DNA of 64,000 nucleotides from Squalus acanthias. Taxonomy: Eukaryota. The position numbers were made by a program, and so were the translations under genes. Each line of letters starts with the position of its first letter. Position 1 is the first letter of the stretch. The stretch lies in assembly GCA_030390025.1 (NCBI GenBank), contig CM059432.1:3596001-3660000 (forward strand), in the 5' to 3' direction. The notes beneath the pieces were generated by a model that saw only the letters and a program-made list of their open reading frames with translations, was not told the origin of the DNA and did not search any database. Positions 3,225 to 51,932 of this stretch are shown piece after piece.

Positions 3225-4011
3225 ATTGTTCCTGGATCATAACTCCATCGACTACAAATACAGTGAAAACTGTTGATTTATAATCCTAGAATCACACAGC
3301 GCAGAATAAAGGAGGCCATTCGGCCCATCGTACCTGTGCCGGCTCTTTGAACGAGCTCTCCAATTAGTCCCACTCCCCCCCTGCTCTTTCCCCATAGCCC
3401 TGCAAATTTCTCCTTTTCAAGTATTTATCCAATTCCCCTTTTGAAAGTTACTATTGAATCTGCTCCCACCGCCCTTTCAGGCAGCGCATTCCAGATCACA
3501 ACGACTCGCTGTGTACATTCCCCAGTCGGTTGGTCTCGTGTGCTGTGGGTGGGGCGAGGGAATAGGTTCTCTGCTTCCAGGCTTCGTGTGAGGAGTACAA
3601 TTTAGCAGTTTTTCGAGGCACGCGGCCCTTTTTGAAAATCGTTGCGTGGTAAGCTCATGTTAAAACATTCATTCTAACTGGGGCCTGAAAACAGAAAAGA
3701 ACAGAAAACATTCGACCAAAAAAAAAACCCATTTCATTCGCACAAAAGTGATTGGGTTACGAATACTTCCTGCAGCCTTGATGTGAAAGTTGGCAGAGGG
3801 CTGATAGAATGCAACAAGCTGAGCACTCAGATCCAGATACTGGCAGCATTTTATGCTCGAATCAGGACACTTGTATTTAATGCCACGCCCATACTAAGAC
3901 CCAAAGACGTAATCTGAGTTCAATGCAACAAGCCCACATGCCAGGCTGCACAGATCATGCTCCATGTTCACACTGGGCGTGGCAGTAAAGTCCAGGCTGA
4001 CACGCCCAGTG

Positions 4012-4346
4012 CATGCTCGCTGACCTACAGTGGCTCCCGCTCCGGCCACGCCTCGATTTTAAAATCCTCATCCTTGTTTTCAAATCCCTCCGTGGCCCTC
4101 GCCCCCTCCCTATCTCTGTAACCTCCTCCAGCCCCACAACCCCACCCCACCCCCCGCCACCCCGAGATCTCTGCGCTCCTGAAATTCTGGCCTCTTGCGC
4201 AACCCCAACTAATGGCTCCACCATCGGCGGCCGTGCCTTCACCTGCCAAGCGACCTCAGCTCTGGAATTCCCTCCATAAACCTCTCCGCCTCTCTAACTT
4301 TCTCTCCTCCTTGAAGACACTCCTTAAAACCTCCCTCTTTGACCAA
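4012..4346 (+). mobile_element. L2 LINE 3' fragment
   Basis: LADLQWLP..RLDFKILILVFKSL motif of L2 ORF2 C-terminus. Confidence 0.8.
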
Positions 4347-4364
4347 GTTCAACTTATTATAAGG

Positions 4365-5036
4365 ACATAAGAACATAAGAATTAGGAGCAGGAGTCGGCC
4401 ATTCGGCCCCTCAAGCCTGCTCCGCTATTCAATAAGATCATGGCTGATCTTCGACCTCAACTGCACTTTCCTGTCCGATCTCCATATCCCTCGATTCCCC
4501 TAGAGTCCAAAAATCTATCGATCTCAGCCTTGAATATACTCAAAGACTCAGCATTCACAGCCCTCTGGGGCAGAGAATTCCAAAGATTCACAACCCTCTG
4601 AGTGAAGAAATTCCTCCTCATCTCAGTCCTAAATGGCTGACCCCTTATTCTGAGACTGTGACCCCTGGTTCTAGACTCCCCAGCCAGGGGAAACAATCTC
4701 TCAGCATCTACCCTGTCAATCCCCCCTCAGTATCATATGTTTCAATGAGATCACCTCGCATTCTTCTAAACTCCAGAGAGTATAGGCCTTAATATCTCCT
4801 TATGTATAGAAGCATAGAAGTATAGAAGATAGGAGCAGGAGTAGGCCATTCGGCCCCTCGAGCCTGCTCCTCCATTTAATGAGATCATGGCTGATCATCC
4901 AAATTCAGTATCTTGTCCCTGCTTTCTCCCCATATCCCTTGATCCCTTTAGCCTTAAGAAATATATCCAACTCCTTCTTGAATATATTTAATGAATTGGC
5001 CTCAACTGCTTTCTGTGGTAGAGAATTCCACAGGTT
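4365..5036 (-). mobile_element. Two CR1 3' fragments inserted in the L2 tail
   Basis: [29 protein letters not shown] (ORF 4457-4696); repeat tails at 4365 and about 4806. Confidence 0.8.
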
Positions 5037-5950
5037 ATGTGGCTCGGTGTCGAATTTTGTTTGATAATCGCTCCTGTGAAGAGCCTTGGGACTATGTTAA
5101 AGGTGCTATATAAATGCATGTTTTTTTTTGTCGTGACTGAGTTCTCTCCCACTGCCCCACACCTGATCGGTAGTTGTAGTGCATACCCAACATTGGATCC
5201 AAATGTAGAAAGCAGAAAACCTGTTCTGGTGCTAATGTGATTTATCCTACTTGTTTTCAGAACATTAAAATTAATTTTAATAAATATCGCTGTCACTGGT
5301 TTTTACCACTCCGGAAGAAAGCAGGCTGTAAATTAAATATGGAAATTACATTGAACTGAATACTGAAAGAGCGGTTTAATAAAGCCTTTATACTCAAGCT
5401 TGATTTATTTGATTGTAAATACTGATGAAATGTAAGCATATGAATACTCCTTTGGACAGGAATAATAGCAACATTGTGCTCATGACGCTCAATATCACGA
5501 TAAATTAATGTTGCCAAGCGGAGATTCCTGCCTCCTCACGCTCTTATAGTCCAAGCAGTTAATGGCATTTCAGCAGGGAACTGGGGATGAATCCACATGA
5601 GGAGGAGTGCCACTGTTAAAGGGAAACTCCACTTTTGCTTATTTCCAAAGCAAATGCCTCTATAAAGTGTTGCAAAGCACATTCTGCTGTGCGAGACACC
5701 CTGCAGAGATTGTTGGAGAACGTGCGTTCGTGCATCCCCACCCTCTCTTCCCCAAAATAGCTCTTGAAAGAGAGAAAGATGACAGAAGGAAAAGACTCAC
5801 ATTCCGACGGCGCCTTTCACAACCTCAGGATGTCCCAAAGCGCTTTACAGCCAATGAAGTTCTTTTTTCAAGTGTAGTCACTGTTGTAATGTAGGAAACG
5901 CAGCAGCCAATTTGCGCACAGCAAGCTCCCACAAATGTGATAATGACCAG

Positions 5951-6086
5951 TATAATGTATTGTCACATGGTTTGTCACATGGTTTGGTATGAGCATGCTC
6001 AGTTCGCTCTGGCCTAGTAAAGCAAGCACATGGACTAGCAACTCATCCTGCCTCTGTCCTTCATTTGTTCTCCCACATGTGTTACA
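5951..6086 (+). repeat. Gypsy 5' LTR (136 bp)
   Basis: Starts TA (TG in the 3' LTR), ends TTACA; 5 mismatches to the 3' LTR over the first 73 nt. Confidence 0.9.
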
Positions 6087-6090
6087 TTTT

Positions 6091-6108
6091 TGGTGACGAG
6101 GATGGGAT
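6091..6108 (+). promoter_or_regulatory. Primer-binding site, complementary to tRNA-Ser(GCU) 3' end
   Basis: TGGTGACGAGGATGGGAT 4 nt after the LTR; one mismatch to the complement of ...ATCCCATCCTCGTCGCCA (tRNA sequence from memory). Confidence 0.8.
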
Positions 6109-6342
6109 CCCAAAGCCATTTTTAGGGATCATGGAAGGACACAGTGTTCAACCTTTGAGTGGAAAAGTTTACGGTGAATTTGTGACACCTAAACTGAATT
6201 TTTGCGATGTTTTACCGTTAATGCTGATGCAGAATCCTCTGTGCTTTGCCTTCGTGTGTTTGTATACACAGCAACAGTGGTGTTGATTATCACAGGTACA
6301 CAGGTAGCGGCTGAGTCACTGTTCGACGGGATCGGGACAATC

Positions 6343-7208
6343 ATGGCCGCACCTACGGGATTCATCGGAAGCCTTGGCCTGTATGACCGAGCTCGCGAAC
6401 CATTCAGTTCTTACACTGAGCAGATGGAGATATTTTTTTAAGGCCAATAACATTATTGAGACCGAAGGTGCAGATGAGAATGCTCAAGCTCAAAATAAAG
6501 TATTTCGTGAACGGAAAAAAGCAATTTTTTTAATGGGGACCGGGCCTGATGTCTACGGAACGTTGACAAACCTACTCGCGTCAGGGAAAGCGAAGGATGC
6601 GGCGTTTGAAGACATTGTCGAGACACTTGAGGACCATTTCGACACAAAGCAGAGAGCTGAGGTTTGGTACCAGAAACCAAAAACAAAGTGAAACCATCAG
6701 TGAGTACATTGCAGTGCTTAAGAAACTGTCTTTGCAATGTAACACTGGCACATTTTTGGATCGTGCGTTGTGAGATAAGTTTGTGTGTGGGCTGTGGATG
6801 AGCGCACACAGTCCAAGTTACTGAACACTCTGAACCTAACGTTTGACAGAGCATGCAAACTTGCCCTATCTATGGAGATGGCATCTAAGAATGCTCGGGA
6901 GCTCTGCCCAACTCAAGTGACTAGTACGTCTGTGGTCTACAGTCACAAAGCCACCGCCAAACCTAAAGCTGTGAGAGCGAGTCAAAAGCATGTCGATGAG
7001 AGCAGTTCAGTGAATTGTTATCGCTGCAATGGAAATCACTCACCACAGTCCTGCCAATACAGAAATGCGAAATGTTTTCACTGCCAGAAGCAAGGCCATA
7101 TTTCAACAGCTTGCAGAGCTAGATCGAAAGCAGGAAGTAAGAACTATTCTAGTGGCAAAGCACAGCAGCAACAACAAAAGGGAGGAGTTCACAATATAGA
7201 AGTGAACA
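6343..7208 (+). pseudogene. gag: Gypsy gag, frameshifted
   Basis: MAAPTGFIGSLGLYD..; zinc-knuckle pair CYRCNGNH..C and CFHCQKQGHISTAC; spread over several frames. Confidence 0.85.
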
Positions 7209-7442
7209 TAACAGAAAAACGCTGGAAAAACTCAGCAGGCGAGGCAGCATCCGTGAAGAGAGAAACAGAGTTAACGTTTCAGGTCGAAGACCCTTCGTCA
7301 GACGAAAGTTCTGACGAAAGGTCTTCGACCTGAAACGTTAACTCTGTTTCTCTCTCCATGGATGCTGCCTGGCCTGCTGAGTTTTTCCAGCGTTTTTCTG
7401 TTGTTATTTCAGATTTCCAGCATCCGCAGTATTTTGCTATCG
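7209..7442 (+). mobile_element. PLE terminal hairpin insertion, family P1
   Basis: About 93-bp inverted arms (7210-7302, 7310-7402) plus 40-nt unpaired tail; 14-bp TSD TATAGAAGTGAACA (7195-7208, 7443-7456); same end sequence as the GIY-YIG-bearing copy at 8590-9339. Confidence 0.88.
7307..7343 (+). ncRNA. Minimal type I hammerhead ribozyme motif (P1)
   Basis: AGTT-CTGACGA-A-AGGTC/TTC/GACCT-GAAA-CGT-T-AACT: catalytic core, stems I and II, palindromic ACGT stem III. Confidence 0.75.
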
Positions 7443-8589
7443 TATAGAAGTGAACACACCTGATGTTGAAGACTCGGCATCTACAGTATCTATGCCACTA
7501 GCGGCAACGCTAGCAGTCGTGAGAAAGACTTCCGTGCAAAACTTTTGATCAACGAGCAATATATTGATATATGTATCGACACAGTGGCGGACTGCTCTAT
7601 CATGAGTAAGGACGCATATGAGAGTAAGTTTAATAAAATATCACTTACAAAGAGTACCGTAGAGTTAAAAACCTACTCCGAAGAAATCCTTGCGACATGT
7701 GGACAAATGGAATGTACAGTTCAACACAATGGCCTAGTCAGTAAAGCTGCCTCTTATTGTAGTGAGCTACAACAGGCCAACCCTCATGGGCAAAGACTGG
7801 TTGAGAAAGTTAAAACTAGATTGGAAAAACATCTTCTGTGTAGATGCTTCAAAGAAGCGACTCGACACGATGCTGAACAAGTATGAAAGCATGCTCACAG
7901 ACAGTTATGAGGGCATCACTGGGTATGACACGCATATCCACATCAAGTCCAATGTGAAGCCTGTCTACTGTAAGGCAAGGCCGGTCCCCTATGCGTTGAA
8001 AAGTCAGGTGGAGGAAGAGCTAGAGGAAGCTGAGAGAGAACGAGTGCTAGTAAAAACTGACAGAAGTGAATGGGCTACCCCGATTGTGGTCGTGCCCAAA
8101 GCAGACAAAACTGTACGCTTGTGCGGTGACTACAGAGTTACTATCAGCCAAGCAGTTGACGATGAGCAGTACCCGTTACCTACATCGCAAGATTTGTATG
8201 CAGCACTCTCTGGGTCAAAGGTTTTCTCCAAGCTTGACCTGTCGCACGCTTACGCTCAGCTTAATGTTAACAAAGAGAGTCAACGGTATCTCACCATCAA
8301 CACACACAAGGGACCAAGCTGCCGTATGGTGTAAAGTCTCCCCCAAAATCTACGATGGATAAGATTTTTCAAGGAGTTCCAAATTGCTTATGCAATTAAG
8401 ACGATGTGCTGATCGCAACAAGCAGCGAGGGAGAACATCTAGAAGTGTTAGATATAGTGCTTCAAAGGCTGAATTCCCACAATGCCAAATTGAAAAGGAG
8501 CAAATGTGCTTTTGTGCAGCCTGAGGTTGTGTACCTTGGTTTGAAAGTTGATGCAAATGGCTTGCAACCAGTGAAGGAAAAGATTGATA

Positions 8590-9339
8590 TAACAACAGAA
8601 AATGCTGGAAACACTTAGCAGATCAGGCAGCATCGAGGAGGAGAAACAGAGTCAACGTTTCGGGTCGAACCCTTCGTCAGAACTGGAAAAGGTTAGAGAA
8701 GAGAGATTTTTAAGCAGGGAGAGGGGGGAGGGGAGGAAAGAACAAAGGGAAGGTCTGTGATAGGATGGAAGGCAGGAGAGATTAAGAGACAAAAGGGATG
8801 ATGGTGCAAGGCAAAAGGAGATGGTAATGGGACAAGTTAAGAAACAAAAGATGGCTCTAGATGAAGTGTGAATGATGATGGCAGCAACATTAACAGCTAC
8901 CATGTGAGGAAACAAGAGAAAAAAAATATATAAAGAAATACAGGTTATAGTCTGAAATTGTTGAACTCGATATTAAGTCCAGAAGGCTGTAAAGTGCCTA
9001 ATCGAAAGATGAGGGGCTGTTCCTCGCGTTTACATTGAGCTTCGTTGGAACAGTGTAAGAGGCCGAGGACGGAGAGATCAGAGTGGGAGTGGAGCGGAGA
9101 ATTAAAGTGACAGGCGACCGGAAGCTCTGGGTCACCCTTGCGGACTGAACGGAGGTGTTCCGCAAAGCAGTCACCCAATCTGCGTTTGGTCTCCCCAATG
9201 TAGAGGAGACTGTATCGTGAGCAGCGAATACAGTATACTAAATTACAAGAAGTACAAGTAAATCGCTGTTTCACCTGGAAGGAGTGTTTGGGGCCCTGGA
9301 CAGTGGGAAGGGAGGAGATAAAAGGCCATGTGTTGCATC
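8590..9339 (-). mobile_element. PLE 3' fragment (GIY-YIG endonuclease plus terminal repeat), family P1
   Basis: ORF 8945-9373 (-): NLVYCIRC..LYIGETKRRL..F.EH..HF..E..LI..L.T..PSGLN; interrupts Gypsy RT. Confidence 0.88.
8650..8684 (-). ncRNA. Minimal hammerhead ribozyme motif (P1)
   Basis: Minus strand AGTT-CTGACGA-A-GGGT/TCG/ACCC-GAAA-CGT-T-GACT. Confidence 0.7.
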
Positions 9340-19030: not shown

Positions 19031-19659
19031 CTTTATATAGCGCCTTTATCGTAGTAAAACATCCCAGGGTGCATCACAGGAGCAATTATCAAATACATTT
19101 TGACACCAGGCCACTTAAGGAGCTATTAGGGCAGGTGACCAAAAGCTTGGTCAAAGAGGGAGGTTTTAAGGAGCGTCTTAAATGAGGAAAGAGAGGTAGA
19201 GAGGCGGAGAGGTTTAGGGAGGGAATTCCAGGGCTTGGGATCTCGGCAGCTGAAGGCACGGCCGGCAATGGTTGAGCGATTAAAATCAGGGATTCTCAAG
19301 AGTTAAAAAAAAATACAATCGGAAAGTGTATTTTGACAACGTCAGTCATGTGTCAATTGAGGCACTGCAATCGACCTCAGAGTCGTGGGACAGGGAGAGG
19401 CTAAAAGGGTTAACTTATTAGGACAGGTTGCACAGACTAGGCTGGTATTCCCTCGAGTATTGAAGATTAAGGGGTGATCTAATCGAGGTGTTTAAGATGA
19501 TTAAAGGATTTGATAGGGTCGATAGAGAGAAACTATTTCCTCTGAGCCAGGCCATTCAGGGGTGATGTCAGGAAGCACTTCTTCACACAAAGGGTGGTGG
19601 AAATCTGGAACTCTCTCCCCCCAAAAAGCTGTTAAGGCTGGGGGGGGGGGGTTCAATAT

Positions 19660-19798
19660 GCATCTCTTCACTTCACCTGACGAAGGAGCAGCGCTCCGAA
19701 AGCTTGTGATTTCAAATAAAGCTGTTGGACTATAACCTGGTGTTGTGCGACTTCTCACATTTGTCCACCCCAGTCCAACACCGGCATCTCCACATCAT
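19660..19798 (+). mobile_element. Putative PLE 3' terminal fragment, family P2
   Basis: Homologous to the right arm and tail of 51136-51587; no coding part seen, so PLE assignment rests on structure. Confidence 0.7.
19673..19709 (+). ncRNA. Minimal hammerhead ribozyme motif (P2)
   Basis: TCAC-CTGACGA-A-GGAGC/AGC/GCTCC-GAAA-GCT-T-GTGA. Confidence 0.78.
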
Positions 19799-19928: not shown

Positions 19929-22618
19929 TAACAACAGAAAGTGCTGGAAACACTCAGCAGATCAGGCAGCGCGAGGAGAGAGAAACAGAGTCAACGTTTT
20001 GAGCCGGGGACCCTTCGTCAGAACTGGAAAAGGTTAGGGAGGAGAGATTTTTAAGCAGGGGCAGGGAGGAGGGGAAGGAAAGAACAAAGGGAAAGTCTAT
20101 GGTAGGATGGAAGGCAGGAGAGACTAAATGACAAAACATAGAAACATAGAAGATAGGAGCAGGAGTAGGCCATTCAGCCCCTCGAGCCTGCTCTGCCATT
20201 CGATGAGATCATGGCTGATCATCTAAACTCAGTACCCTGTACCTGCCTTCTCCCCATATCCCTCGATACCTTTAGCTTTAAGAAATATATCTAACTCATC
20301 CTTGAATATATTTAATGACTTCGCCTCAACTACCTTCTGTGGTAGAGAATTCCACAGGTTCACCACTCTCTGGGTGAAGAAATTCTTCCTCATTTCTGTC
20401 CTAAATGGTTTACCCGTTATCCGTAGATTATGACCCCTGGTTCTGGACTCTCCGACCATCGGGAACATTCTTCCTGCATCTAGTTTGTCCAGACCTGTCA
20501 GAATTTTATATTTTTCGATGAGATCCCCTCTCATTCTTCTGTACTCCAGTGAGTATAAGCCCAATCGACCCAATCTCTCCTCATATGTCATTCCTGCCAT
20601 CCCAGGTATCAGCCTTGTGAATCTTCGCTGAACTCCTTCCATGGCAAGAACATCCTTCCTCAGATAAGGCGACCAAAACTGCACACAGTACTCAAGCTGT
20701 GGTCTCACCAAGGCCCTGTACAACTGCAGCAGGACATCCCTGTTCCTATACTCAAACCCTTTCGCTATGAAGGCCAACATACCATTTGCCTTCTTCACCG
20801 CCTGCTGCACCTGCATGCTTACTTTCAGCGACTGGTGCACAAGGACACCCAGGTCTCGTTGCACTTCCCCTTCTCCCAATCTATTGCCATTCAGATAATA
20901 GTCTGCCTTTCTGTTTTTGACACCAAAGTGGATAACCTCGCACTTATCCACGTTATATTGCATCTGCCACGCTTCTGCCCACTCACCCAACCTGTCCAGA
21001 TCATCCTGGAGTTTCTCGCTATCCTCCTCGCTGCACACACTCCCACCCAGCTTTGTGTCATCTGCAAACTTGGAGATATTACATTTAATTCCCTTATCTA
21101 GATCATTAATGTATATTGTGAATAGCTGGGGTCCAAGGACCGATCCCTGCGGTACCCCACTAGTCACTGCTTGCCACTCGGAAAAAGACCCATTAATTCC
21201 TACTCTCTGCTTTCTGTCCGCCAACCAGTTCTCTATCCAAGTCAATACCTTGCCCCCAATCCCATGTGCCTTAACTTTACCCGCTAATCTCTTATGCGGG
21301 ACCTTATCGAAAGCCTTTTGACAGTCCAAATACACCACATCTACTGCTTCTCCCTTATCTATTTTCCCAGTTACATCCTCAAAAAATTCCAGTAGATTAG
21401 TCAAGCACGATTTACCTTTTGTAAATCCATGTTGACTTTGTCCGATCCTGTCACTGTTTTTCAAATGCTCAGCTATTACATCCTTTATAATAGACTCTAG
21501 CATTTTCCCCACTACCGATGTCAGGCTTACCGGTCTGTAATTCCCCGCTTTCTCTCTACCACCCTTTTTGAATAGTGGGGTAACATTAGCTACCCTCCAA
21601 TCCATGGGTACAGTTCCAGATTCCATCGAATGTTGGAAGATGATCAGCAATGCATCTACTATTTCTAGGGCCACTTCCTTAAGTACCCTAGGATGTAGAT
21701 TATCAGGCCCTGGGGATTTATCGGCCTTCAATACCGTCAATTTCCCTAACACCATTTCCCTGCAAATACTGATTTCTTTCAGTTCCTCCCTTTCATCAGA
21801 CCGTATGTTCTCCAACATCTCTGGGAGGTTATTTGTGTCCTCCTTTGTGAAGACAGAACCAAAATATGCATTATATGGGCTGCCATTTCTTTGTTCCCCA
21901 TTATAACTTCCCCCGCTTCTGACTGCAAGGGACCTACACTTGATTTCACTAATCTTTTTCTCTTCACATATCTATAAAAGCTCTTACAGTCAGTTTTTAT
22001 GTTCCCAGCAAGCTTACTTTCATATTCTATTTTCCCCTTCTTAATTAATCCCTTTGTCCTCCTTTGTTGAATCCTAAACTGCTCCCAATCCTCAGGGCTA
22101 CCGCTTTTTCTGGCCAATTTATATGCCCTCTCCTTGGATCTTATGCTATCCCTAATTTCCCTTGTTAGCCACGGTTGAGTCTCCCTTTTTGTTTTATTCT
22201 TATGCCACACTGGGATGTACAAATTCTGTAGTTCATCCATGCAGTCTTTGAATGTTTGCCATTGCCTATCCACCGTCAACCCCTTGAGTGACATTCCCCA
22301 ATCAATCCTACCCAATTCGCGCCTCATACCATCGTAGTTTCCTTTATTTAAATTCAGGACCCTAGTCTCTGATTCAACTACTTCACTCTCCATCCTAATG
22401 AAGAATTCTATCATATTATGATCACTCTGACCCAAGGGGCCTCGTACAACAAGATTGCTAATTAATCCTTTCTCGTTGCATAATACCCAGTCGAAGATGG
22501 CCTGATCTCTGGTTGGTTCCTCGACATATTGTTCCAGAAAACCATCTCGTAAACATTCTAGGAATTCCTCCTCCACAGTATGATGGTGCGAGGGAAAAGG
22601 AGAGGTAATGGGACAAGA
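19929..22618 (-). mobile_element. PLE P1 terminal fragment (about 19929-20133 and 22580-22618) split by a CR1
   Basis: Collinear with 8590-8836; hammerhead core mutated (GAAA to AAAA). Confidence 0.75.
20134..22580 (-). mobile_element. CR1 LINE, 5'-truncated, long ORF2 stretch with one frameshift near 21870
   Basis: ORFs 21779-22702 and 20229-21818 (529 aa): [52 protein letters not shown]. Confidence 0.95.
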
Positions 22619-39836: not shown

Positions 39837-40314
39837 AATAACAACAGAAAACGCTGGAAAAACTCAGCAGGCCAGGCAGCATCCGTGGAGAGAGAAACAG
39901 AGTTAACGTTTCAGGTCGAAGACCTTTCGTCAGAACTGGAAAAAGCAGGAAATGAAATAGATTTAAAGCAAGGATAATGCTGGGAAAAGGGGGAGGGGAT
40001 GAAAGAACAAAAGGAGAGATTAGGAGACCTTGAGAGACATTAAGAGATAATCAAGGCAAGAGGAGGTGTTGATGTGACAGGTTGAGGCTAGATGAAGTGT
40101 GAAATGCGCTGGCAGAATGAAGGACAGCTGCCAGCTTCTGGGAGGGAAAAAAAAGGGGGGGGGGGGCCAAACAAAAGAGTGGATGAAAAAATAAAATATA
40201 AATGTGATAGGGGCCGAGGTTATGATCTAAAATTGTTGAACTCGATGTTGAGTCCAGAGGGCTGTAGGGAGCCTAAACGAAAGATGAGGTGCTGTTCCTC
40301 GAGCTTACGCTGAG
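39837..40314 (-). mobile_element. PLE P1 3' fragment inserted in a CR1 3'UTR
   Basis: 14-bp TSD CTCCTTCCACCCTA (39823-39836, 40315-40328); GIY-YIG C-terminus (EEQHLIFRLGSLQPSGLNIEFNNFR) on minus strand. Confidence 0.88.
39901..39937 (-). ncRNA. Minimal hammerhead ribozyme motif (P1)
   Basis: Identical to 7307-7343, on the opposite strand. Confidence 0.75.
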
Positions 40315-49067: not shown

Positions 49068-51181
49068 CTATCAAACTATAGCATATGTAGCATATTCTCC
49101 TTAGAGAAGCAAAGCTTAAGGGGAGGTTTGTTCAAAATCAGGAATGGTTTTGACTGAGTAAATAAGGAGAAACTGTTTCCAGTGGCAGGAGGGTCGGTAA
49201 CCAGAGGACACTGATTTAAGGTGATTGGCAAAAGAACCAGAGGGGGAGAGGAGGAGAATTTTATTCACTCAGCGAGTTGTTGTGATCTGGAACGCGCAGT
49301 CTGAAAGGGCGGGGGAAGCAGATTCAATAGTAACTTTCAAAACAGAATTGGATAAATACTTGAAGGGGAAGAATTTGCAGGGCTATGGGGGAAAGAGCAG
49401 GGGGGAGTGGGACTAATTGGAGAGCTCTTTCAAAGAGCCGGCACAGGCTCGATGGGCCGAATGGCCTCCTCCTGTGCTGTGCGATTCTGTGATTCTATGC
49501 TATGTGTGGAGGTCCTTGCAACACTAAGTACTCACTGCAGAATTTCATTTAAGTTTCATAAAAGTTGGTGATGCCCAGTAACCAAAACGTCAGTTCAACA
49601 TTAATGACCTGAATAGATGATTTCTTCCATACGATGTAAGTATTCAGCGGGTGAGCTACCGTATGGATCACTCGGTCAACTTACTGCTTAAATATTCATG
49701 GTTTTTCAACCAGCCCATCAGGGATTTCCAATACATACTTCACTTTAAAAATCATCAGCACTGGTGGTGTAATAGTTTGTGATTTATTGGAACCAAAGAC
49801 AGCGTTGAAAATCCGCCAGCTTTGTTTGTGCATTGAGAGCACAGAACAGTGGGGCAGGTGAAGCAAGCTCCTCCAGTAATTAGCACAGTCGCACATTCAA
49901 ATACTGCATCACAAGAACTACATCGGATCACACAGGAGATACAGCACAAGAAGGGGCCATTTGGCTGTCCATGCCGGCGTTTATGCTCCACTCGAGCCTC
50001 CTCCCGTCTTTCCTCATCTAACTCTATCAACATTACCCTCTAGAACTAGGGGGCATAATCTTAGAATAAGGGGCTGCTCTTTCAAAACTGAGATGAGGAG
50101 AAACTTCTTCACTCAGAGGGTAGTGGGTTTGTGGAATTTGCTGCCCCAGGAAGCTGTGGAAGCTACATCATTAAATAAATTTAAAACAGAAATAGATAGT
50201 TTCCTAGAGGTAAAGGGAATAAGGGGTTACGGTGAGCGGGCAGGAAATTGGACATGAGGCTGAGTTCGGATCGGTCAGGGCCCTGTGGGTGGCGGAGCGG
50301 GCCCAGGGGCTGAGTGGCCGGGTCCTGCTCCTACTTCTTGTGTTCTTTAGATTGGAGGTTAGGATCAGATCAGCCATGATCTTATTGAATGGCGGAGCAG
50401 GCTCGAGGGGCCGATTGGCCTACTCCTGCTCCTATTCTTATGTTCTTATGTTCCCTTCTCCCTCATGTGTTTATCTAGTTTCCCCATAAATGCATCTGTG
50501 CTATTTGCCTCAACCACTCCCTGTGGTAGCGAGTTCCACATTCTCACCACTCTCTGGGTAAAGAAGTTTCTCCTGAATTGCCTACTTGATTTCTTGGTGA
50601 CTATCTTATATTGAAGACCTCTAGTTATACTCTTCCCCTTTAATGGAAACACTCTCTCTGATGGAGCCACTCTAATGGAAACACTCTATCAAAACCTCTC
50701 ATAATTTTAAAGACCACTATTAGATCACCCTTCAGCCTTCTCTTTTCAAGAGAAAAGAGACCCAGCCTGTTCATAGAGTCATAGAGTCATAACGGCACAG
50801 AAGGAGGCCATTCGGCCCATCGAGTCTGTGCCGGCTCTCTGCAGAGCAATCCAGTCAGTCCCATTCCCCCGCTCTATCCCCGGAGCCCTGCAAGTTTATT
50901 TCCCTCAAGTGTCTATCCAGTTTCCCCTTGAAAACATCGAGTGTCTCCGCTTCCACTACTTCCGTCGGCAGCGAGTTCCAGGTCCTCACCACTCGCTGCG
51001 TAAAAAAGTTTTTCCTCACATCCCCCCTTTTATCTCTTGCCCAAAACCTTAAATCTGTGTCCCCTAGTCCTTGTACCATCAACTAGTGGGAACAGCCTTT
51101 CCCCGTCTAGCCTATCCAAACCCATCATAATCTTGAGAAGTCGCACAACACCAGGTTATAGTCCAACAGATTTATTTAATT

Positions 51182-51220
51182 TTACAAGCTTTCGAAGCAG
51201 TTCGCTCCTTCGTCAGGTAA
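51182..51220 (-). ncRNA. Minimal hammerhead ribozyme motif (P2, left arm)
   Basis: Reverse complement of 51458-51496. Confidence 0.75.
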
Positions 51221-51457
51221 GTTAGCAATGAGAGAATCTCCCAGAATTCACAATTTAAACCCAGACAAAATCTATTCACATTATTCCCTACAACAAAGAG
51301 CACAGCCAAGACAATGAGATGTGTCCCAGGGGGTCCAACGTGTCAAACCTGGGACACATCTCATTGTCTTGGCTGTGCTCTTTGTTGTAGGGAATAATGT
51401 GAATAGATTTTGTCTGGGTTTAAATTGTGAATTCTGGGAGATTCTCTCATTGCTAAC

Positions 51458-51496
51458 TTACCTGACGAAGGAGCGAACTGCTTCGAAAGCTTGTAA
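51458..51496 (+). ncRNA. Minimal hammerhead ribozyme motif (P2, right arm)
   Basis: TTAC-CTGACGA-A-GGAGC/GAACT/GCTTC-GAAA-GCT-T-GTAA. Confidence 0.78.
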
Positions 51497-51932
51497 AATT
51501 AAATAAATCTGTTGGACTATAACGTGGTGTTGTGCGACTTCTCATTTTTGTCCACCCCAGTCCAACGCCGGCATCTCCACATCATGACCATCATAATCTT
51601 GTACACCTCTATCAAATCACCCCTCAACCTCCTTTGCTCTAATGAAAACAAATCCAGCTTCTCCAACCTGTCCTTGTAGCTAAGATCCCCCATCCCCGGA
51701 ACCATTCTGGTAAATCTCCTCTGCATCCTCTCATCCTTTGCTGATGGGTATAACCTCTCAGTCTGGTATCATCCTTCTAAATCCTTTCTGCACCCTCTCC
51801 AGTGCCTCTATATCCTTTTCATAATATGGCGACCAGAACTGTACATAGTATTCCAAGTGTGGTCTAACCAAGGTTCCAAACAAGTTTAGCATAACTTTCA
51901 ACTTTAGAACCATTTCATAGCAATGCAACAGT

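What the first reader, a model, noticed from the sequence alone, without database searches (positions are those of the whole stretch)
19673..19709. Compensatory changes between P2 copies support a selected hammerhead fold
Seen: stem I is TCAC/GTGA here and TTAC/GTAA at 51458-51496, a double compensatory change. Stem II is GGAGC/GCTCC here and GGAGC/GCTTC there (G-C to G-U) with different loops. CTGACGA and GAAAGCTT are invariant. Stem III is only the palindrome AGCT. Established: such loop-less palindromic stem III motifs are thought to cleave as dimers. Inference: the predicted cut is after CUU, a suboptimal NUH triplet, so cleavage may be slow or need protein help.
Basis: partly seen in the sequence, partly recalled or inferred. 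Interest (0 to 1): 0.7.

Follow-up and report, generated by a model that had tools for sequence, protein, structure and literature searches.

The report
Penelope retroelement minimal hammerhead, subfamily covariation
The 37-base motif is the tiny hammerhead-shaped RNA motif at the end of a very abundant Penelope-like jumping gene; its paired changes are inherited differences between subfamilies and likely reflect selection on the RNA shape, but this kind of motif and its covariation were described in 2014, so the finding is largely ordinary.

Summary
Confirmed at both coordinates. The motif is the minimal type I hammerhead in the pseudo-LTR of a Penelope-like element (RT, Cys linker, GIY-YIG-type endonuclease); a 23-base anchor beside it has 99,227 exact matches in this 3.7-Gb genome. 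The two window copies are stubs of two subfamilies. The stem I change is one base pair. Genome-wide it reads C-G 42,789, U-A 24,779, U·G 2,125, C·A 431, and a tree from flanking DNA puts U·G between the two: about one compensatory event through a wobble. Across 27 recurring haplotypes, eight pairs never break; stem II shows a second double change; the fourth stem I pair breaks in 6 of 27. The core is not invariant: N7, H17 and U4 (3,821 copies) vary. Two copies alone proved little: a double transition always keeps a pair, and the G·U change favours a competing fold. 104 of 108 copies run through the predicted CUU cut; 5' ends pile up instead at a TATA/Inr-like start just before the motif. Cleavage was not testable. 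Known kind (Cervera and de la Peña 2014). The scan noted all these points earlier on other DNA of this genome.

The parts
19656..19798 (+). 5'-truncated end stub (pseudo-LTR plus tail) of a Penelope-like element, C-G subfamily; lacks the TATA-like box; ends on the AT of the element's start codon
   Evidence: 140 of 143 bases match L027; ATG position from tandem copy L056
19670..19670 (+). A of an Inr-like TCACTTC, inferred transcription start of source elements, 7 nt before C3
   Evidence: 5' ends pile up here, often after an untemplated G; TATA-like box 30-32 nt upstream in 9 of 12 full C-G-class arms shown; inference
19673..19676 (+). Stem I 5' strand TCAC; three inner pairs conserved, outer pair not
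19677..19684 (+). Core C3-A9 (CTGACGA) plus the extra A typical of PLE minimal hammerheads
   Evidence: consensus CUGANGAH in PMC4209133 supplement
19685..19697 (+). Stem II GGAGC/GCTCC with 3-nt loop (loop 3-9 nt across subfamilies)
19698..19705 (+). G12-A15.1, palindrome AGCT (loop-less stem III) and U17; predicted cut 3' of 19705, after CUU
   Evidence: sequence; hammerhead numbering from established knowledge
19706..19709 (+). Stem I 3' strand GTGA
19715..19720 (+). AATAAA, unchanged in 61 of 61 arms on the tree; possible poly(A) signal, untested
51134..51330 (-). Inverted short-tailed arm of the U-A subfamily insertion; hammerhead motif at 51182-51220
51348..51589 (+). Long-tailed arm of the U-A subfamily insertion; hammerhead motif at 51458-51496
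51122..51135 (.). 14-bp target-site duplication, left copy (right copy 51588-51601)

Best explanation
The motif is the minimal type I hammerhead sequence in the end repeat of an abundant Penelope-like retrotransposon, and its fold was likely kept by selection on active source elements, in which it would cut only slowly, as a dimer and likely with help from the element's protein. Shown: the two window copies are promoter-less or fold-back stubs of two subfamilies; intact tandem sources carry two hammerheads about 3.1 kb apart around an RT-endonuclease ORF; stem I pair 3 occurs as C-G, U-A and a replicated U·G form. Inferred: the pair changed stepwise through the wobble; the source transcript starts about 7 nt before the core, so the two hammerheads of one tandem transcript could pair their AGCU palindromes; most new copies were made from RNA that was whole across the cut. 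The stub at 19656-19798 has no partner hammerhead in cis and is likely inert.
For: Family size and PLE ORF: (L263 has a 919-codon stop-free frame, hammerheads 3,046 nt apart; L056 3,136 nt). Pair table 42,789 / 24,779 / 2,125 / 431, C·A 0.6% against 15,538 expected if sites were unlinked (linkage is mostly descent). Tree of 47 arms built without the hammerhead: U·G arms lie between the U-A and C-G groups, the 3 C·A arms are separate tips. 27 haplotypes: 216 of 216 cells pair at eight pairs, 2 pairs change on both sides, slid controls pair 17-49%; RNAalifold recovers the same eight pairs. Variation sits on N7, loop II and H17; H17 is G in 0 of 84 arms. Internal-branch steps: 1.8 per site upstream, 2 over 13 core sites (partly built in by my patterns). 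A second family in the window keeps core and extra A with the palindrome ACGT. Published match: PMC4209133 consensus, with an AGCU-U turtle motif and a UCAC/GUGA lamprey stem I; protein-assisted cleavage in the anole element.
Against: No cleavage data; all 24 runs found are contigs and show no RNA ends. No Rfam hit. Independent events are few: by my count 7 of 7 single-side steps at the eight pairs keep pairing (p 0.008 if half of transitions do), but 7 of 9 with the outer stem I pair (p 0.09), and I set that pair aside after seeing it. U4C subfamilies spread to 3,821 copies though U4C lowers in vitro activity. The 51458 haplotype's predicted minimum is not the hammerhead fold. The 3' linker and tail are about as conserved as the core, so conservation alone is not specific. 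In the anole element, hammerhead mutants did not affect insertion in vitro.
Confidence: 0.65

Rival explanations
1. The fold is selected but cutting is dispensable: the structure serves as a protein-binding or promoter-proximal leader element, and the hammerhead core is kept for shape or by overlap with other signals.
For: 104 of 108 arms run through the cut and none starts exactly at it; U4C subfamilies spread; CUU is in the slowest tier; hammerhead mutants do not change anole PLE insertion in vitro, and Naiad PLEs lack canonical hammerheads.
Against: The positions free to vary (N7, H17 but never G, loop II) are those a catalytic hammerhead tolerates; the stem III palindrome is kept in two families with different letters; related motifs cut in vitro.
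Confidence: 0.2
2. The hammerheads cut efficiently and the unit-length RNA is re-ligated into a circle that is the main template, so copies look uncut.
For: Proposed in PMC4209133; explains partial tandems such as L056 and L263 and copies that span the cut.
Against: A circle has no 5' end, yet copies stop in excess at an Inr-like A before the motif, often after an extra G; no reads at the cut were found in anole RNA-seq.
Confidence: 0.1
3. The paired changes are neutral hitchhikers: two transitions fixed in one founder lineage and copied thousands of times.
For: Both changes are transitions; stem I shows about one event; double changes at pair 1 that restore T-A also arise in decaying copies (11 of 20 rows); the count of structure pairs shuffle ignores relatedness.
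Against: The replicated intermediate is U·G, not C·A; a second double change and three wobble changes in stem II all keep pairing while loop II changes freely.
Confidence: 0.05

Closest known systems
Minimal hammerheads (min-HHR) in pLTRs of metazoan Penelope-like elements (Cervera and de la Peña 2014, PMC4209133; parts 1-2 of 4 and part 2 of supplement file 2 read)
   Same: Type I layout, CUGANGAH with an extra nucleotide before stem II, G10.1-C11.1, palindromic 15.2-16.2 without loop III, U-rich 5' and AU-rich 3' flanks, mostly solo or opposite-strand copies, subfamilies with compensatory changes. The turtle entry has the same G-C-U-U (CUU cut); the lamprey entry has the same UCAC/GUGA stem I.
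   Different: No shark term was found in the supplement text searched (file 1 not searched). Copy number here (over 70,000 intact motifs) far exceeds the 4,000-9,000 reported for coelacanth and Xenopus. A copy-counted U-A / U·G / C-G series was not in the parts read.
PAc (Poseidon) element of Anolis carolinensis (Frangieh et al. 2024, PMC11167929; parts 1-2 of 4 read)
   Same: pLTR hammerhead, tandem pLTR-ORF-pLTR, two 3' end points 30-40 nt apart (short and long tail), uncut RNA as main template.
   Different: In PAc the hammerhead overlaps the start codon and the tail lies about 110 nt inside the ORF; here the hammerhead lies about 90 nt upstream of the ATG and the tail ends at the ATG. This ORF has the Cys linker that Poseidon lacks.
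Neptune/Nematis-type EN+ Penelope-like elements (Craig et al. 2021, PMC8557442; passages)
   Same: [quoted passage not shown]
   Different: Clade placement was not tested by phylogeny; no reference PLE proteins were at hand.

Membership tests
Minimal type I hammerhead of PLEs | Core CUGANGA ... GAAA ... UH in order | tested here: met
   U4C subfamily is an exception
Minimal type I hammerhead of PLEs | Stems I and II supported by covariation | tested here: met
   eight pairs 216 of 216 cells, two double changes; few independent events; outer stem I pair not kept
Minimal type I hammerhead of PLEs | Extra nucleotide between 9 and 10.1; G10.1-C11.1 | tested here: met
   A in 83 of 84 arms; G-C in 27 of 27 haplotypes
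Minimal type I hammerhead of PLEs | Palindromic 15.2-16.2, no loop III | tested here: met
   AGCT in this family, ACGT in the second
Minimal type I hammerhead of PLEs | Self-cleavage as a dimer or with protein help | not testable with these tools
   only contigs available; needs an assay
Rfam hammerhead families | Score at or above a family's gathering threshold | tested here: not met
   no hit at gathering or at E up to 10
EN+ Penelope-like element | Single ORF with RT and C-terminal GIY-YIG endonuclease next to the repeat | tested here: met
   RVT_1 above cut-off in L046 and L039; VVYL...WYIGET read by eye, no Pfam GIY-YIG hit for this family's ORF
EN+ Penelope-like element | Partial tandems, inverted truncated copy, optional 30-40 nt tail | tested here: met
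   L056, L263 tandems; window 51134-51589; two 3' end clusters, 46 of 108 arms long-tailed
Neptune clade | CX2-5CxxC linker between RT and EN | tested here: met
   C-x4-C-x2-C in L039, L046, L263; motif from PMC8557442, shared with Nematis
Neptune clade | RT phylogeny with named Neptune members | not tested
   no reference set fetched
Non-LTR retrozyme | Short non-coding head-to-tail tandem units with canonical hammerheads | tested here: not met
   no tandem array at either site; the motif belongs to a coding element

The most novel reading that the evidence does not exclude
The hammerhead is the first 36 bases of the capped element transcript and sits 9 nt before a fixed AAUAAA, so dimer cleavage of a tandem transcript would strip both cap and poly(A) signal: a self-limiting switch tuned to be slow (CUU, U4C), not a processing step. 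The genome's tens of thousands of copies then record its evolution step by step, including a compensatory walk through an active U·G subfamily, and show that the uncut capped RNA is the template.
Probability: 0.25. Interest if true: 0.55.

Novelty: new member of a known kind. Interest (0 to 1): 0.22.

Why it matters
Minimal hammerheads in Penelope-like elements are known, but what they do in vivo is open. This family is young, has intact tandem sources and over 70,000 intact motifs, so natural variants (U·G intermediate, U4C, CUU against CUC) can be ranked by copy number and assayed side by side. That makes the role of the ribozyme testable. The compensatory change itself is ordinary.

Tried and rejected
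Rfam gave nothing. DNA search of the own genome returned no candidates because the words are too common; pattern searches replaced it. Single-strand folding gave no significant z-scores. Co-folding two copies did not give the dimer hammerhead as the minimum; the AGCU duplex alone is -2.5 kcal/mol; the model is ill-suited, so I draw nothing from it. Searches for subfamilies with double changes at stem I pairs 1 and 2 found only 20 and 26 copies with mixed backgrounds; a small G·U / G-C / G·G group at pair 2 is too small to read. A 5' end peak at the cut site was not found. A 3' splice site before stem I was considered: CAG is present in some U-A subfamilies and absent in others. A long-range extension of stem I was considered by eye and not tested. 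Contigs of four runs show the element in other organisms but no RNA ends; in run X9 the only differences at 5% or more inside the motif were in loop II and the G·U-making 19696 C>T. No PDB sequence match for the ORF. Lünse et al. (PMC5785218) is not held; I saw only its title in a reference list. Searches had parsing faults, corrected.

Full report
Observation. At 19673-19709 the parts are stem I TCAC/GTGA, core CTGACGA, one extra A, stem II GGAGC/GCTCC with loop AGC, then GAAAGCTT. At 51458-51496 stem I is TTAC/GTAA, loop II GAACT, and stem II 3' strand GCTTC. A third copy lies on the minus strand at 51182-51220, in the inverted arm of the same insertion, which has a 14-bp target duplication. 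A descriptor for loop-less hammerheads finds 6 motifs in the window and on average 0.005 in 200 shuffles. Rfam finds none.

What it belongs to. A 23-base anchor just downstream has 99,227 exact matches in the 3.7-Gb own genome. Longer copies run into an ORF with an RT (Pfam RVT_1 above cut-off), a C-x4-C-x2-C linker and a GIY-YIG-type end read by eye. L056 and L263 are partial tandems with hammerheads 3,136 and 3,046 nt apart; L263 has a 919-codon stop-free frame. The ATG sits at the end of the tail. 3' ends fall in two clusters about 40 nt apart, and 46 of 108 arms are long-tailed. This is the layout of EN+ Penelope-like elements, with the linker described for Neptune and Nematis (PMC8557442, passages). 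The host is probably a cartilaginous fish; that is my recollection of its repeats and the label of earlier notes, not a test. The copy at 19656-19798 matches L027 at 140 of 143 bases and is a solo stub.

The stem I change. It is one pair. Genome-wide exact patterns give C-G 42,789, U-A 24,779, U·G 2,125 and C·A 431. Unlinked sites would give 15,538 C·A, but that contrast mostly reflects descent. More telling: most of the 100 listed U·G rows share one haplotype, so U·G was itself copied, while C·A rows spread over many loop types, and in L072 only one of two arms has it. A small C·A source is not excluded, since several share one background. On a tree of 47 arms (from 154; 55 were long enough, 8 collapsed as partner arms) built only from DNA upstream of the motif, U·G arms lie between the U-A and C-G groups and the 3 C·A arms are separate tips. 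Several forks there are weakly supported and the tree is unrooted. I read this as about one compensatory event via a wobble. Both window haplotypes recur in my sample (31 and 8 arms), so their differences were inherited from source elements.

The whole fold. For 27 haplotypes seen in 3 or more arms (loci chosen for rare states left out), eight pairs pair in 216 of 216 cells. Stem I pair 3 and stem II pair 5 change on both sides, three stem II pairs show G·U, and the outer stem I pair breaks in 6 of 27. Slid controls pair 17-49%; the number of double-changed pairs is reached by 37 of 500 shuffles, so that measure is not significant. RNAalifold finds the same eight pairs. Counted as events the signal is modest: 7 of 7 single-side steps keep pairing (p 0.008 under a one-half null), or 7 of 9 with the outer pair (p 0.09) (my event count). 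Many arms came from patterns that fixed the core and the first two stem II pairs, so the unbiased set matters: of 108 anchor-selected arms, 84 reach stem I and parse. Among them the core differs only by U4C (5), one G8A and one lost extra A; N7 takes all four bases; H17 is T 73, C 11, never G. On a 61-arm tree, internal steps are 1.8 per site upstream, 2 over 13 core sites and 5 at N7, but the 3' linker and tail are conserved too. U4C subfamilies hold 3,821 copies and many carry the stem II U-A pair; U4C is reported to lower activity in vitro yet allow viroid infectivity (PMC3088659, passages). A second family in the window, 46,379 pattern matches genome-wide, keeps the core and extra A with different stems and the palindrome ACGT.

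A double transition always keeps a Watson-Crick pair; 11 of 20 decayed copies changed at both sides of pair 1 read T-A. The G·U change in the 51458 haplotype creates a competing helix that takes up G8, A9 and G12: predicted minimum -8.6 against -6.0 kcal/mol for the hammerhead stems.

How it likely works. Of 108 arms, 2 start downstream of the cut, 2 start 2-3 nt after it, 16 inside the motif, 24 in the 13 nt before C3, and 64 further up. So 104 were copied from RNA that was whole across the cut. The pile-up is at the A of TCACTTC, with a TATA-like box 30-32 nt upstream in 9 of 12 full C-G-class arms shown. A purine before this A occurs 4,575 times, G in 82 of the first 100 rows; one base further up, 1,140 times, G in 54 of 100 (hand counts; Fisher p 3.5e-5). 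All 30 loci examined are 5' junctions. An untemplated G is taken as a cap mark for L1 (PMC4859970, passages). Caveat: about 26 of the 30 are fold-backs, where microhomology could also favour G, and the 4 direct junctions split 2 G, 2 A. The 19656 stub starts 14 nt upstream of this site and lacks the TATA box, so it came from a longer RNA and likely cannot be transcribed on its own. The arms at 51134-51589 face apart, so one transcript would carry one sense hammerhead and its antisense. Only tandem sources can offer a dimer in cis. CUU is listed in the slowest NUH tier (PMC8879150, passages); the C17 subfamilies have CUC, a faster one. Cleavage itself is untested: all 24 runs found are contigs.

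Comparison. [quoted passage not shown] Its alignment has a turtle motif with the same CUU cut. PMC11167929 (parts 1-2 of 4) shows protein-assisted cleavage that is not needed for insertion in vitro. TATA and Inr-like TCACT in a pLTR are noted for a rotifer element (PMC3846280, passages), and an internal promoter for Drosophila Penelope (PMC2377424, passages). Searches for shark with Penelope and ribozyme and for shark genome, Penelope, Neptune listed no paper on this family. A 2026 preprint sampled one chondrichthyan for tandem retrozymes (passages; its supplements are closed). Supplement file 1 of PMC4209133 could not be searched and may bear on this.

Earlier notes of the scan, read after my own tests, report the same family, the subfamily covariation, U4C, the uncut template and the capped start on other DNA of this genome. 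They are unreviewed and add no support.

Verdict. A real, family-level selected minimal hammerhead fold in a Penelope-like element; a new member of a known kind. Interest 0.22.

Noticed in passing
window 7265-7347, 8646-8680 (-), 39897-39933 (-), about 19986-20025 (-): A second hammerhead-bearing family with palindrome ACGT (cut after GUU); 7265-7347 is a fold-back pair; 46,379 pattern matches genome-wide; a PLE endonuclease remnant lies upstream at 8993-9337 (-). Its stem II often closes with A-U or G·U instead of G10.1-C11.1.
   Followed up: partly
G000 genome-wide; window 19670: 5' ends of copies pile up at an Inr-like A 7 nt before the core, often after an extra G, with a TATA-like box about 30 nt upstream: likely run-off from a capped transcript.
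   Followed up: yes
L031, L033, L051, L171-L180: U4C core variant in 3,821 copies, linked to a C-G to U-A change at stem II pair 5.
   Followed up: partly
window 19715-19720 and 51503-51508: AATAAA 9 nt past the predicted cut, unchanged in 61 of 61 arms and followed by a GT-rich stretch; possible poly(A) signal, not seen in the ACGT family's flank.
   Followed up: no
L263, L056, L046, L039: Near-intact or intact tandem source elements with ORFs of 800-900 codons; short end branches on the trees suggest a young family.
   Followed up: partly
window 51122-51601 and many loci: Insertions often sit inside CR1-like repeats; flanks were recognised by eye, target preference not counted.
   Followed up: no
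L153, L156, L157, L163, L165, L168, L170: A small group with G at stem I position 2.2 facing U, C or G; too few to read as a compensatory step.
   Followed up: partly
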